Shown in pieces: positions 2,546 to 25,868 of a stretch of 37,535 nucleotides of DNA (positions are counted from its first letter, which is position 1; the number at the start of each line of letters is the position of its first letter). The DNA comes from a virus. Lineage: Duplodnaviria; Heunggongvirae; Uroviricota; Caudoviricetes. The position numbers and the translations under genes were made by a program. Location of the stretch: the IMG/VR virus record IMGVR_UViG_2681813154_000004; one strand, written 5' to 3'. Below the pieces are notes generated by a model, which saw only the letters and a list, made by a program, of their open reading frames with translations, searched no databases and was not told where the DNA came from.

Positions 2546-2980
2546 ATGTCCGGTAATATCTATACGCTGTACAAATCCCACTGTGAAAATGTTGGAAAGT
2601 ATCGGGGCATTGAAATCAGTGGGGTAGTGTCATCAGTCGAAATAAGCAAAGTTGAATCAAGGGCAACATTACTTACTCTTTTGGACCTTGTCTTACATGA
2701 GCACCGGAAGAAATTCGGCACTCCCTATAATCAGTTGAATGGGAAAAAGGCTCTGGTTCACCTTATTCTGATGAAGCATCACTGGATGCCAAAACAGATT
2801 AATGAGATGAAATTTGATGAACTTCTTCTTTCAATTCAGGATGAACTCACACTTGATAAAATAAGCGTAACCGCCCAGAAATTTTTAGATTATCGAGACT
2901 GGAGATCACAAATTCATCACTTTGATGATTTTGACGAAAATGAATGGGATCCTAATTTGTCTGCACAATATCTAAAGTAA
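2546..2980 (+). CDS. Hypothetical 144-aa soluble protein, AT-rich accessory gene
   Basis: Long ORF in an AT-rich stretch, ATG with AAGGAAAAG RBS, direct repeats upstream, intrinsic terminator downstream; no family recognised. Confidence 0.6.
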   Translation: MSGNIYTLYKSHCENVGKYRGIEISGVVSSVEISKVESRATLLTLLDLVLHEHRKKFGTPYNQLNGKKALVHLILMKHHWMPKQINEMKFDELLLSIQDELTLDKISVTAQKFLDYRDWRSQIHHFDDFDENEWDPNLSAQYLK

Positions 2981-3158
2981 CATCCTGTGATAAAACCGTG
3001 ATTTCCTGATCCAGTTTTTTTAAGGAGTCTATTGTTTCCTGTCGATAAGACAGCACTTCACGAAGCTGGTTTATAGCTGCCAGCTTCTTTGTCATCCACT
3101 CATAAATTTCCTCATCTGTGTAGCCAGGCGCGACGATTTTGGGTTCTGTTTTGTGCAT
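2952..3158 (-). CDS. Hypothetical 68-aa protein, first gene downstream of the pL-like promoter
   Basis: ATG at 3158 (MHKTEPKIVAPGYTDEEIYEW...) with GAGGAG RBS 7 nt upstream; track ORF 2952..3173 begins at an in-frame TTG; overlaps the 3' end of the 144-aa ORF by 29 bp. Confidence 0.5.
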   Translation of the reverse strand: MHKTEPKIVAPGYTDEEIYEWMTKKLAAINQLREVLSYRQETIDSLKKLDQEITVLSQDVTLDIVQTN

Positions 3159-23614: not shown

Positions 23615-25094
23615 CACCATTCCGTCGAATACGCTGGTTCCGTTGTTTTATGCGGAAATGGATAACCAGGCGGCGAATACTGCACAGGACAGCGGAGCAT
23701 CGCTGCTGATTGGTCATGCCAATAACGGTGCAGAGATTGTTGCCAACAGTCTGGTGCTGATGCCATCGGCAGACTATGCACGCCAGATTTGTGGTGCGGG
23801 AAGTCAGCTGGCGCGTATGGTCGAGGCTTATCGCCAGACCGACCCGTTTGGTGAACTGTATGTGATTGCCGTTCCTGAATCCACGGGCGCGGCGGCAACA
23901 GTTACGCTGACGGTGACCGGCGCGGCAACCGAAACCGGCACGGTGAATGTTTATGTGGGACGTACCCGCGTGCAGGCACCGGTGACCAACGGCGATAACG
24001 TCGCGACGATTGCCAGCAGTATCCAGGATGCCATCAATGCCGTTCCGCCCCTGCCGTTTACGGCTTCATCTTCGGCAGGCGTGGTCACACTGACCGCGCG
24101 TCATAAGGGGCTTTGCGGGAATGAAATTCCTGTCAGCCTCAATTACTACGGCTTTGGTGGGGGCGAAGTGCTGCCAGCGGGCGTACAGATTGCCGTGGCG
24201 ACGGGTACCGCCGGAACGGGCGCTCCTGTTCTCACCGGCGCGGTGGCTGCAATGGCGGATGAGCCGTTTGATTATATCGGCCTGCCGTTCAACGACACGG
24301 CCTCCGTTAACACGCTGGTGACCGAGATGAACGATACCAGCGGTCGCTGGAGCTATGCGCGTCAGCTGTATGGTCATGTGTACACGGCAAAGATCGGCAC
24401 GCTGTCAGAACTGGTGACCGCAGGTGACCAGTTTAACCAGCAGCACATTACCCTGGCGGGATACGAAAAAGAGACCCAGACGCCTGCCGACGAGCTGGCG
24501 GCAAGCCGTACCGCCCGCGCAGCGGTGTTTATTCGCAACGATCCGGCACGTCCCACGCAGACCGGTGAGCTGGTGGGTATGCTGCCTGCGCCGAAGGGGA
24601 AACGGTTCACGATGACCGAACAACAGACCCTGCTGTCTCATGGCGTGGCAACGGCGTATGTCGAAAGCGGGGTGCTGCGCATTCAGCGTGATGTCACCAC
24701 GTACAGGAAAAACGCTTACGGTGTTGCGGATAACAGCTACCTCGACAGCGAGACGCTGCATACCAGCGCGTATGTACTGCGCAAACTGAAATCCGTCATT
24801 ACCAGTAAGTACGGGCGTCACAAGCTTGCCAGCGACGGTACCCGCTTTGGTCCCGGTCAGGCGATTGTCACCCCGGCGGTGATCAAAGGGGAACTGCTGG
24901 CAACCTACCGTCAGCTTGAGCGTGCGGGGATCGTGGAAAACTACGAACTTTTTAAGCAGTACCTGGTTGTGGAGCGTGATGCCAGCGATCCGAACCGCCT
25001 GAACACGCTGTTCCCGCCTGACTATGTTAACCAGTTGCGTGTCTTTGCCGTGGTTAACCAGTTCCGTCTTCAGTATTCAGAGGAGTCCGCATAA
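23598..25094 (+). CDS. Contractile tail sheath protein (Mu L-like)
   Basis: 498 aa immediately followed by a tube gene; N-terminus MTISFNTIPSN... as in Mu-type sheaths. Confidence 0.85.
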   Translation: MTISFNTIPSNTLVPLFYAEMDNQAANTAQDSGASLLIGHANNGAEIVANSLVLMPSADYARQICGAGSQLARMVEAYRQTDPFGELYVIAVPESTGAAATVTLTVTGAATETGTVNVYVGRTRVQAPVTNGDNVATIASSIQDAINAVPPLPFTASSSAGVVTLTARHKGLCGNEIPVSLNYYGFGGGEVLPAGVQIAVATGTAGTGAPVLTGAVAAMADEPFDYIGLPFNDTASVNTLVTEMNDTSGRWSYARQLYGHVYTAKIGTLSELVTAGDQFNQQHITLAGYEKETQTPADELAASRTARAAVFIRNDPARPTQTGELVGMLPAPKGKRFTMTEQQTLLSHGVATAYVESGVLRIQRDVTTYRKNAYGVADNSYLDSETLHTSAYVLRKLKSVITSKYGRHKLASDGTRFGPGQAIVTPAVIKGELLATYRQLERAGIVENYELFKQYLVVERDASDPNRLNTLFPPDYVNQLRVFAVVNQFRLQYSEESA

Positions 25095-25450
25095 TGGCCC
25101 GTATCGGGGGAACCTGTTATTTCAAAATTGACGGTCAGCAGCTATCGCTGACCGGCGGCATTGAGGTGCCCATGAACAGGACGGTCAATGATGACATCAT
25201 CGGCCTGGACGGTTCAGTGGACCGCAAGGAAACTCACCGTGCGCCTTATGTCAAAGGGACCTTCAAGGTGCCGAAGAATTTTCCGGTGAGCAAAATCACC
25301 TCGTCTGATGAGATGACCATCACTGCCGAGCTGGCGAACGGTCAGGTCTATGTATTGTCGTCCGCCTGGCTGCACGGAGAAGCGAACCATAATGCCGAAG
25401 AAGGCACGGTTGATCTTGAGTTCCACGGTGAAGAAGGGGATTACCAGTAA
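25094..25450 (+). CDS. Tail tube protein (Mu M-like)
   Basis: 118 aa after the sheath; ATG overlaps the sheath stop. Confidence 0.8.
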   Translation: MARIGGTCYFKIDGQQLSLTGGIEVPMNRTVNDDIIGLDGSVDRKETHRAPYVKGTFKVPKNFPVSKITSSDEMTITAELANGQVYVLSSAWLHGEANHNAEEGTVDLEFHGEEGDYQ

Positions 25451-25719
25451 TGAAAGAGCTTGAGTTAAAGAAACCGATTACCGCTCATGGCGAGACACTC
25501 TCCGTACTGGAGTTTGATGAGCCCACCGGGAAAGATGTCCGCGAGCTGGGGTATCCCTACCAGATGAATCAGGATGAGTCCGTCAGACTTCTGGCGCATG
25601 TGGTATCGAAATACATTGTGCGGCTGGCGAAAGTGCCGCAAAGCTCTGTCGACCAGATGTCTCCGGCAGACCTGAATGCAGCGGCGTGGCTTGTGGCTGG
25701 TTTTTTCCTCCAGGCCTGA
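25450..25719 (+). CDS. Tail assembly chaperone, short form
   Basis: 89-aa ORF between tube and tape measure; ends just after a TTTTTTC slippery heptamer. Confidence 0.7.
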   Translation: MKELELKKPITAHGETLSVLEFDEPTGKDVRELGYPYQMNQDESVRLLAHVVSKYIVRLAKVPQSSVDQMSPADLNAAAWLVAGFFLQA

Positions 25720-25868
25720 CGGCTGAATACCTCACTGATCGCTTCTTTGACTGCGCCAGTTACTGGCGCATTAATCCTTTCGAATTGCTGAATATGCCGA
25801 TCAGTGAAATTCCCTTACTGGTCAGTCAGGCAAACAGGATAGAGCAGGAGAAACGCACACATGGCTGA
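25450..25868 (+). CDS. Tail assembly chaperone, -1 frameshift fusion product (slip at T_TTT_TTC, 25701-25707)
   Basis: Frame 0 reads ...GFFLQA*, the -1 frame reads ...WFFPPGLTAEY... to a stop at 25868 that overlaps the tape-measure start. Confidence 0.6.

What the first reader, a model, noticed from the sequence alone, without database searches (positions are those of the whole stretch)
25686..25719. Programmed -1 ribosomal frameshift site (T_TTT_TTC) in the tail assembly chaperone
The 89-aa chaperone ORF and the following ORF overlap in the -1 relationship, and the overlap contains a canonical slippery heptamer T TTT TTC (25701-25707). Slipping there yields a fusion ending at 25868, overlapping the tape-measure start. 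This is the conserved G/GT-type chaperone mechanism, here in a Mu-like tail module.
Basis: partly seen in the sequence, partly recalled or inferred. Interest (0 to 1): 0.45.

Follow-up and report, generated by a model that had tools for sequence, protein, structure and literature searches.

The report
Tail chaperone -1 frameshift site, phage SfI
This is an ordinary but unannotated example of a well-known phage trick: a few ribosomes slip back one base on a run of T's at the end of a small tail-assembly gene and so make a second, longer helper protein.

Summary
The window is Shigella phage SfI. The 89-codon gene at 25450-25719 is a P2 gpE-type tail assembly chaperone (Pfam PF10109). It lies between the tail tube gene and the tape-measure gene. 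T_TTT_TTC (25701-25707) is in phase, read as GGT TTT TTC. The -1 frame is open from 25578 to 25868. A slip gives a 139-aa fusion (...AGFFPPGLTAEY...) whose stop overlaps the tape-measure ATG by 8 nt.

One sequence alone is weak evidence: about 0.04-0.37 such motifs are expected by chance. Comparison settles it. In 94 distinct related loci, some only about 22% identical in protein, 92 keep an in-phase T6 heptamer at the same aligned codon, and the other 2 keep the T6 run. All 94 keep a 49-65-codon -1 extension. That extension evolves as coding sequence and has no conserved start codon of its own. A profile of the fusions aligns with phage P2 E+E' across the junction, and P2's annotated slip site (T_TTT_TTG) falls on the same GF[FL] codons.

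The kind is known and this member is new, because public records leave the 141 nt unannotated. No canonical stimulatory structure was found. A subclade-conserved hairpin 44 nt downstream is unexplained. Interest is low.

The parts
25094..25450 (+). Tail tube gene (118 aa). Its TAA overlaps the chaperone ATG by one base (TAATG).
   Evidence: PF10618 Tail_tube, E=2.4e-33. Annotated as tail tube protein in SfI NC_027339.
25450..25719 (+). Tail assembly chaperone, the zero-frame product (89 aa). It is homologous to P2 gpE.
   Evidence: PF10109 Phage_TAC_7, E=1.9e-16; phrog_166, tail. P2 gpE hits the same family at 1.5e-12.
25701..25707 (+). Slippery heptamer T_TTT_TTC, in phase: P-site codon TTT 25702-25704, A-site codon TTC 25705-25707.
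   Evidence: Read directly from the sequence. An in-phase T6N heptamer is kept at the same aligned position in 92 of 94 distinct relatives, while the neighbouring wobble sites vary. It is positionally homologous to P2's annotated site T_TTT_TTG.
25707..25868 (+). -1 frame extension: 53 codons (PPGLTAEY...EKRTHG) plus TGA. It corresponds to P2 E'. The complete fusion is join(25450..25707, 25707..25868), 139 aa.
   Evidence: Conserved at protein level in all relatives, with the motif A-x-[FY]-W-[RK]-x-x-P...A-x-R-I. Synonymous fraction of codon differences is 0.51 in this frame against 0.08 and 0.11 in the other two. hhalign against P2 E+E' covers this part. phrog_32181, E=4e-40.
25861..27696 (+). 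Tape measure gene (611 aa). Its ATG lies 8 nt inside the end of the fusion ORF (ATGGCTGA), and an AGGAG lies about 10 nt upstream of the ATG.
   Evidence: PF10145, E=5e-27. The same 8-nt overlap is seen in 58 of 94 distinct relatives and in P2 (ATGAGTAA).
25752..25770 (+). Hairpin TGCGCCAG-TTA-CTGGCGCA inside the extension, 44 nt 3' of the heptamer. Its role is unknown, and it is probably not a canonical stimulator.
   Evidence: Local z-score is -2.9. The stem wobble sites are invariant in about 27 distinct enterobacterial relatives while the loop and flanking wobble sites vary. Covariation is weak. It is absent from more distant relatives.

Best explanation
This is a programmed -1 ribosomal frameshift of the P2 E/E+E' type. 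Ribosomes translating the chaperone mRNA reach GGU UUU UUC with tRNA-Phe on UUU in the P site and on UUC in the A site. Most of them read on, through L-Q-A to the stop, and release the 89-aa chaperone. A minority slip one base 5', re-pair with UUU UUU, and continue from CCU in the -1 frame for 53 codons. That makes a 139-aa fusion of the chaperone domain and an E'-like domain. The fusion terminates at a UGA that overlaps the tape-measure AUG. By analogy with lambda gpG/gpGT, the shared N-terminal domain should coat the tape-measure protein, and the extension should recruit the tube protein, so that the tail is built in a fixed chaperone-to-fusion ratio. Shown here: the anatomy, the homology, the conservation of the site and of the -1 ORF, and coding selection on the -1 frame. 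Inferred: that the slip happens on the ribosome, how efficient it is, and what each protein does.
For: Anatomy. Family and context. Ten other phages at 22-78% protein identity all have NNT TTT TTN at the aligned codon and a -1 ORF ending within -3 to +7 nt of the tape-measure start. The same holds in 17 of 17 loci from bacterial genomes and in 80 of 82 evaluable viral contigs; the other two have G_TTT_TTT with the same -1 ORF. Pooled, there are 94 distinct loci. Of these, 92 have the in-phase heptamer, the preceding codons are GGT/CGT/AGT/CCT/AAT/GAT (all ending in T), and the extensions are 49-65 codons. The adjacent Ala codon uses all four wobble bases, yet GGT and the first TTT never change. 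The coding signal is present only in the -1 frame. Seventeen of 28 loci have no start codon at all in the -1 frame near the site, and none of the others has a Shine-Dalgarno sequence. hhalign of the fusion profile against P2 E+E' gives probability 96.6% and E=5.5e-10 over 121 columns that span the junction. The P2 record annotates E+E' as a -1 frameshift at that site. U_UU.U_UU.C is among the heptamers measurably shift-prone in E. coli and is used by IS elements (PMC4066793). The conserved tail-gene frameshift and the P2 case are described in PMC5009743 and PMC3091744.
Against: There is no direct evidence for the protein. No stimulatory hairpin or pseudoknot lies 5-9 nt downstream and no conserved Shine-Dalgarno-like element lies upstream. 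The bare UUUUUUC heptamer gave only 0.12% in an E. coli reporter, so the real efficiency and any stimulator are unknown. The slip site is homopolymeric, so sequence alone cannot separate ribosomal slippage from RNA polymerase slippage. The Pfam model for P2 E' (PF06528) does not detect the SfI extension directly.
Confidence: 0.9

Rival explanations
1. Transcriptional slippage. RNA polymerase adds one extra U on the T6 run, and normal translation of that minority mRNA gives exactly the same ...GFFPPGL... fusion.
For: The site is a homopolymer in all 94 distinct relatives and is never a mixed heptamer such as G_GGA_AAG. Fifteen relatives have T7. The bare heptamer is a weak ribosomal shifter (0.12%) and no stimulator was found. 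The protein product would be identical, so mass spectrometry cannot tell the two apart (inference).
Against: From general knowledge, runs of 6-7 are shorter than the 8-9 or more usually needed for productive slippage by bacterial RNA polymerase (topic reviewed in PMC5009743). The run is held in the X_XXY_YYZ phase in 92 of 94 loci although the preceding amino acid varies among G, R, S, P, N and D; polymerase slippage would not require that phase. The homologous P2 site is annotated and cited as a translational frameshift.
Confidence: 0.06
2. The -1 ORF is a separate small gene (60 aa from GTG 25686, or a shorter form) that is translated from its own start. This is how it appears in PHROG 32181.
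For: A GTG in the -1 frame lies at 25686. Some phage annotations evidently called the ORF on its own, which produced phrog_32181, 'unknown function'.
Against: No Shine-Dalgarno sequence precedes the GTG. Seventeen of 28 relatives have no ATG, GTG or TTG in the -1 frame between its upstream stop and 30 nt past the heptamer. In several relatives the -1 frame opens only 15-30 nt before the heptamer. The T6 heptamer would then have no reason to be conserved at its wobble sites.
Confidence: 0.02
3. This is a chance overlap, or a decayed gene (a frameshift mutation in a formerly single ORF), with no function.
For: In one sequence alone an in-phase heptamer in a 47-codon overlap is not rare: 0.16-0.37 are expected.
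Against: The arrangement is kept in 94 distinct loci from Enterobacteriaceae, Pseudomonas, Burkholderia, Bordetella and an alphaproteobacterium, with purifying selection on the -1 frame. The database 'fusions' P0001-P0006 are singletons whose sequences are garbled around the site, which suggests assembly errors.
Confidence: 0.01

Closest known systems
Phage P2 tail genes E and E+E' (-1 frameshift at T_TTT_TTG; Christie et al. 2002, as cited in PMC5009743 and PMC3091744)
   Same: Same Pfam family for the chaperone (PF10109). The profile alignment runs through both parts. The slip site lies on the homologous G-F-[FL] codons about 4-7 codons before the zero-frame stop. The product sizes are similar: 91 and 142 aa in P2, 89 and 139 aa here. 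The fusion stop overlaps the tape-measure ATG by 8 nt in both. Both lie between the tube and tape-measure genes of a contractile tail.
   Different: The last base of the heptamer is C here and G in P2. Overall identity is only about 21%. The surrounding tail module is Mu/SfV-like rather than P2-like. Pfam's E' model (PF06528) does not score the SfI extension. The frameshift has not been tested experimentally in SfI.
Phage lambda G/GT tail assembly chaperones (-1 frameshift at G_GGA_AAG; Levin 1993 and Xu 2004, 2013, 2014, as cited in PMC5009743)
   Same: Same gene position (between the major tail gene and the tape measure), same logic (two products sharing an N-terminus in a fixed ratio), and no obligatory RNA stimulator.
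   Different: No detectable sequence similarity. Lambda has a non-contractile tail and a mixed heptamer. The roles of the two domains are shown for lambda and only inferred here.
Phage Mu gp41 (tail assembly chaperone upstream of tape measure gp42)
   Same: The flanking genes are homologous to Mu L, M, gp43 and P. The position in the tail operon is the same.
   Different: Mu gp41 is 144 aa and belongs to PF23746, scoring only 24.7 bits against PF10109, just under the cutoff of 25. Mu has no T6 heptamer. Its -1 frame closes 107 nt before gp42, while the +1 (= -2) frame runs to 15 nt before it. That matches the -2 shift attributed to Mu by Xu et al., as quoted in PMC2628397.

Membership tests
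Conserved tail-assembly-chaperone frameshift (Xu, Hendrix and Duda 2004 class) | Two overlapping ORFs located between the major tail/tube gene and the tape-measure gene | tested here: met
   Tube gene 25094-25450, chaperone 25450-25719, -1 ORF running to 25868, tape measure from 25861.
Conserved tail-assembly-chaperone frameshift (Xu, Hendrix and Duda 2004 class) | [quoted passage not shown] | tested here: met
   T_TTT_TTC at 25701-25707, four codons before the stop.
Conserved tail-assembly-chaperone frameshift (Xu, Hendrix and Duda 2004 class) | Site and downstream frame conserved among diverged homologues | tested here: met
   92 of 94 distinct loci keep the in-phase heptamer and all 94 keep the -1 ORF. 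The coding signal is in the -1 frame only.
Conserved tail-assembly-chaperone frameshift (Xu, Hendrix and Duda 2004 class) | The fusion protein is made in vivo at a low fixed ratio, and both products are required for tail assembly | not testable with these tools
   This needs protein detection and genetics.
Pfam PF10109 Phage_TAC_7 (P2 gpE / gp41 / gp14 chaperones) | Score above the family's gathering threshold | tested here: met
   60.3 bits against a cutoff of 25, covering 4-86 of 89 residues.
P2 E+E' fusion protein | Homology extends across the frameshift junction into the E' part | tested here: met
   hhalign gives probability 96.6% and E=5.5e-10, query 6-132 against P2 7-135, with the GFF and GFL codons aligned.
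Pfam PF06528 Phage_P2_GpE (the E' domain) | The HMM matches the -1 extension | tested here: not met
   The SfI extension gives no hit at E<=10. P2 E' scores 2.1e-22. A Bordetella relative scores 0.0098, which is below threshold. The relationship is visible only at profile level.
Mu gp41 type (PF23746, -2 frameshift) | Gp41_Mu domain, with the downstream ORF in the -2/+1 frame | tested here: not met
   The SfI protein hits only PF10109. Its +1 frame closes 7 nt after the stop.
Canonical stimulated -1 PRF (dnaX or IS3 type) | A stimulatory hairpin or pseudoknot 5-9 nt 3' of the heptamer, or a Shine-Dalgarno-like element 10-14 nt 5' of it | tested here: not met
   Folding z-scores are -0.8 and -0.2. 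Only a 4-bp, non-conserved stem lies at +5. There is no consensus structure next to the site across relatives.

The most novel reading that the evidence does not exclude
The subclade-conserved hairpin at 25752-25770 lies 44 nt past the slip site and 33 nt past the chaperone stop, in RNA that most ribosomes never translate. It might be a functional RNA element that sets the chaperone : fusion : tape-measure stoichiometry. It could act as a non-canonical distal stimulator, for example by stalling a leading ribosome so that a queued ribosome sits on the heptamer. Alternatively it could be an mRNA stability or processing barrier between the abundant sheath/tube/chaperone segment and the scarce tape-measure segment. 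Either role would help explain how a heptamer that gives about 0.1% on its own could supply enough fusion protein.
Probability: 0.1. Interest if true: 0.5.

Novelty: new member of a known kind. Interest (0 to 1): 0.2.

Why it matters
The main value is for annotation. The fusion protein is missing from the GenBank and RefSeq records of SfI, SfV, SfII, SfIV, ST64B, phiP27 and others. It is also missing from the one PGAP-annotated E. coli chromosome I opened, and 12 sampled hits show the same three flanking products. The locus occurs in 917 of 5,426 complete E. coli genomes. One PHROG of 'unknown function' (32181) is simply this extension called as a separate ORF. The comparison also shows that SfV-like 'Mu-type' tails use the P2-type chaperone and slip site rather than Mu's own arrangement. 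It does not change what is understood about frameshifting.

Tried and rejected
(1) A downstream stimulatory structure. Folding 25708-25800 and 25680-25770 gave z-scores of -0.8 and -0.2. RNAalifold on 15 relatives, and per-sequence folds of 16 relatives, found nothing conserved next to the site.

(2) The hairpin at 25752-25770 as a conserved structure. It is locally significant and its synonymous sites are conserved within one subclade. Formal pair counting gave only weak covariation: 2 pairs and 5 cells, some of them in sequences where the helix is otherwise broken. The result is inconclusive.

(3) Rfam with permissive thresholds and a terminator/promoter scan of the region found nothing relevant.

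(4) Independent initiation of the -1 ORF was rejected.

(5) The full-length 'fused' database proteins P0001-P0006 were examined as possible natural fusions. They are singletons with garbled sequence around the site, so they were rejected as probable assembly or sequencing errors.

(6) A genome scan with the 11-phage alignment failed because no stretch was conserved enough. It was redone with a closer alignment.

(7) Xu et al. 2004 and Christie et al. 2002 could not be retrieved, so they are cited only through papers that quote them. No held paper describes the frameshift in SfI, SfV or SfIV.

(8) A PDB sequence search with the fusion profile found no solved relative.

(9) Structure prediction was not attempted.

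Full report
**Identity of the window.** The 4.1 kb around the finding is 100% identical to Shigella flexneri serotype-converting phage SfI (JX509734 / NC_027339) and about 98% identical to SfV and SfII. Window 25001-37121 matches SfI exactly, through gtrI. Window coordinate equals SfI record coordinate plus 15827.

**Checking the observation.**
- ORF 25450-25719 encodes 89 aa.
- The -1 frame is open from 25578 to 25868. The listed ORF from GTG 25686 is part of that open stretch.
- The zero-frame codons are GCT GGT TTT TTC CTC CAG GCC TGA, so TTTTTTC at 25701-25707 is a true X_XXY_YYZ heptamer.
- A -1 slip gives a 139-aa protein, ...AAWLVAGFF-PPGLTAEYLTDRFFDCASYWRINPFELL...EKRTHG.
- The TGA of that protein (25866-25868) lies inside the first codons of the tape-measure gene (ATG 25861; ATGGCTGA).

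The genes on either side are Mu-like:
- sheath (PF04984, PF17482, PF17481)
- tube (PF10618)
- tape measure (PF10145)
- DNA-circularisation protein (PF07157)
- baseplate hub

Taken alone, the motif is weak evidence. From the window's own density of such heptamers, 0.16-0.37 are expected in the 47 overlapping codons, or 0.04 for a T6 run.

**What the gene is.** The 89-aa protein matches Pfam PF10109, 'Phage tail assembly chaperone proteins, E, or 41 or 14', at E=1.9e-16 over nearly its full length. It also matches PHROG 166, a tail family. The -1 extension matches PHROG 32181, 'unknown function', at E=4e-40. That family is therefore just this extension called as a separate ORF.

**Comparative evidence.** I collected three sets of homologous loci:
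- ten other phages at 22-78% protein identity: EPP-1, AH07, BgVeeders33, ST64B, SfIV, DVM-2008, phiP27, Bordetella PBb002, Pseudomonas PG1 and a Haematospirillum element
- 17 loci from one-genome-per-species bacterial contigs
- 84 viral contigs found with more divergent queries

In every annotated phage there is an unannotated gap of 84-148 nt between the chaperone stop and the tape-measure start. In every one, NNT TTT TTN sits at the same aligned codon, and a -1 ORF runs from there to within -3 to +7 nt of the tape-measure start. Pooling all sets gives 94 distinct sequences:
- 92 have the in-phase heptamer: TTTTTTC 75, TTTTTTT 15, TTTTTTG 2.
- 2 have G_TTT_TTT with the same -1 ORF.
- Extensions are 49-65 codons long.
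- In 58 loci the extension overlaps a long downstream ORF's start by exactly 8 nt.

The codon before the run changes its amino acid (GGT, CGT, AGT, CCT, AAT, GAT) but always ends in T. The first Phe codon is always TTT. The Ala codon one step upstream uses all four wobble bases. So the nucleotides of the heptamer are constrained beyond what the protein requires.

The zero-frame tails after FF vary from 1 to 31 codons and are not conserved. The -1 extension is conserved, with the motif A-x-[FY]-W-[RK]-x-x-P...A-x-R-I. Among 13 relatives that align without gaps, variable columns downstream of the zero-frame stop fall 28/18/40 on codon positions 1/2/3 of the -1 frame. Of all codon differences, 51% are synonymous in that frame, against 8% and 11% in the other two. 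The other two frames also contain stops.

Independent initiation is not supported. Seventeen of 28 loci have no ATG, GTG or TTG in the -1 frame near the site, and none of the rest has a Shine-Dalgarno sequence.

**Relation to known systems.** The P2 reference record annotates E (91 aa) and E+E' (142 aa, joined, 'site of -1 translational frameshift'), followed by T, the tape measure.
- The P2 site is GTC GGT TTT TTG, on the G-F-L codons. E+E' ends 8 nt inside T, at ATGAGTAA.
- A profile of the 11 fusion proteins aligns with P2 E+E' at probability 96.6% and E=5.5e-10 over 121 columns. The alignment spans the junction, with GFF opposite GFL and YWRINPFEL opposite FHWPPSEL.
- P2 gpE is in the same Pfam family.
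- Pfam's E' model (PF06528) does not score the SfI extension directly, although it weakly scores a Bordetella relative.

Mu itself differs. Its gp41 is mainly PF23746, it has no T6 run, and its -1 frame closes early while the +1 (= -2) frame runs almost to gp42. This agrees with the statement that Xu et al. proposed a -2 shift for Mu (PMC2628397). The SfV-like 'Mu-type' tail module therefore carries a P2-type chaperone and slip site.

The general mechanism and the roles of the two products are reviewed in PMC5009743, which also says that P2-type efficiency is 2-3 times lambda's. In lambda, G coats the tape measure, the T domain recruits the major tail protein, and the ratio is about 30:1. PMC3091744 reports that the P2 site is conserved in Burkholderia P2-like phages and that no hairpins lie downstream.

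**Mechanism and open points.** tRNA-Phe can re-pair from UUU/UUC to UUU/UUU. In E. coli, U_UU.U_UU.C is among the heptamers that shift measurably and are under-represented in genes, and it is used by IS elements (PMC4066793). The measured values for UUUUUUC in that study's reporter are 0.12% without a stimulator, 0.9% with the IS911 elements and 7.6% with the IS3 pseudoknot.

I found no canonical stimulator here, so the efficiency in its native context is unknown.

Because the site is a homopolymer, addition of one U by RNA polymerase would give the identical protein. I rate this as unlikely. The run is short, and it is held in the ribosomal phase in 92 of 94 loci. Sequence alone cannot exclude it.

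**An unexplained extra.** A perfect 8-bp hairpin, TGCGCCAG-TTA-CTGGCGCA, lies at 25752-25770. That is 44 nt past the heptamer, in RNA that is untranslated for ribosomes that terminate at 25719.
- It is locally stable, with z = -2.9 here and down to -5.5 in relatives.
- In about 27 distinct enterobacterial relatives that encode C-A-[SRK]-[YF]-W-R, the stem wobble bases (TGC, GCC, CGC) never vary, while the loop and flanking wobble bases do.
- Two sequences carry a G-C to A-T double change that keeps a pair.
- Relatives that have lost the 3' arm relax the 5' arm.
- Formal covariation is weak.
- The hairpin is absent from the ST64B/SfIV-type, Pseudomonas and Burkholderia relatives. P2 has an unrelated strong hairpin in a similar place.
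- It has no Rfam match and is not terminator-like.

**Novelty.** The kind of system is textbook. This member is not described in the SfI or SfIV genome papers. It is not annotated in any public record I opened, including a PGAP-annotated E. coli chromosome. The locus is present in 917 of 5,426 complete E. coli genomes.

**Verdict.** It is a new member of a known kind, and interest is low (0.2).

Noticed in passing
window 25752-25770 (+): Perfect 8-bp hairpin TGCGCCAG-TTA-CTGGCGCA inside the -1 extension, 44 nt past the slip site. The stem wobble sites are invariant in about 27 distinct enterobacterial relatives while the loop and flanking wobble sites vary. Covariation is weak, and the hairpin is absent from distant relatives. 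Function unknown.
   Followed up: partly
window 30122-30128 (+): An in-phase A_AAA_AAG heptamer lies 11 codons before the stop of the Mu P-like baseplate hub gene (29082-30161), and the -1 frame there is the next gene (30161-30709). That gene has its own AGGAGG and ATG, so the heptamer is probably an incidental product of a KKKK stretch. Its conservation was not tested.
   Followed up: partly
window about 25478-25487 (start of the chaperone gene); SfIV NC_022749 and phage vB_EcoM-720R4: Mosaic boundary. SfIV-type phages are about 97% identical to the window through the sheath and tube genes. The match stops within the first 30-40 nt of the chaperone gene, and their chaperone is then only about 45% identical in protein. 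The SfIV paper gives under 50% identity for both the chaperone and the tape measure (PMC3851460). The chaperone, its frameshift extension and the tape measure appear to be exchanged as one module.
   Followed up: partly
SfI NC_027339 9893-10033 (= window 25720-25860); E. coli NZ_CP021935 3126307-3126447: The 141 nt between the chaperone stop and the tape-measure start are unannotated in GenBank and RefSeq phage records and in the PGAP-annotated E. coli chromosome I opened. The locus occurs in 917 of 5,426 complete E. coli genomes.
   Followed up: yes
proteins P0001-P0006: Six database 'proteins' of 107-139 aa look like natural chaperone-extension fusions. They are singletons whose sequence is garbled around the T-run (for example ...AGFSSSLTAEY......GFFLQARRLNTSLIAFFDC...). 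They are most likely indel errors in metagenome or long-read assemblies, not real fused genes.
   Followed up: partly
L094 (phage Mu NC_000929) 2553-3132: Mu gp41 has no T6 heptamer. Its -1 frame closes 107 nt before gp42, while the +1/-2 frame stays open to 15 nt before it. This fits the -2 shift reported for Mu and shows that the SfV-like tail module does not share Mu's own recoding site.
   Followed up: partly
PHROG 32181: This 63-position PHROG family, labelled 'unknown function', matches the -1 extension at E=4e-40. It is the E'-like part of the frameshift product called as a stand-alone ORF.
   Followed up: partly
L189 and L190 (IMG/VR contigs), T6 at locus position 650: These are the only two relatives whose T6 run lies in phase 0 (AAG TTT TTT ACG, that is G_TTT_TTT). 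The homologous 64-codon -1 ORF is still intact, so this may be a weaker or tetramer-type (U_UUU) slip site.
   Followed up: partly
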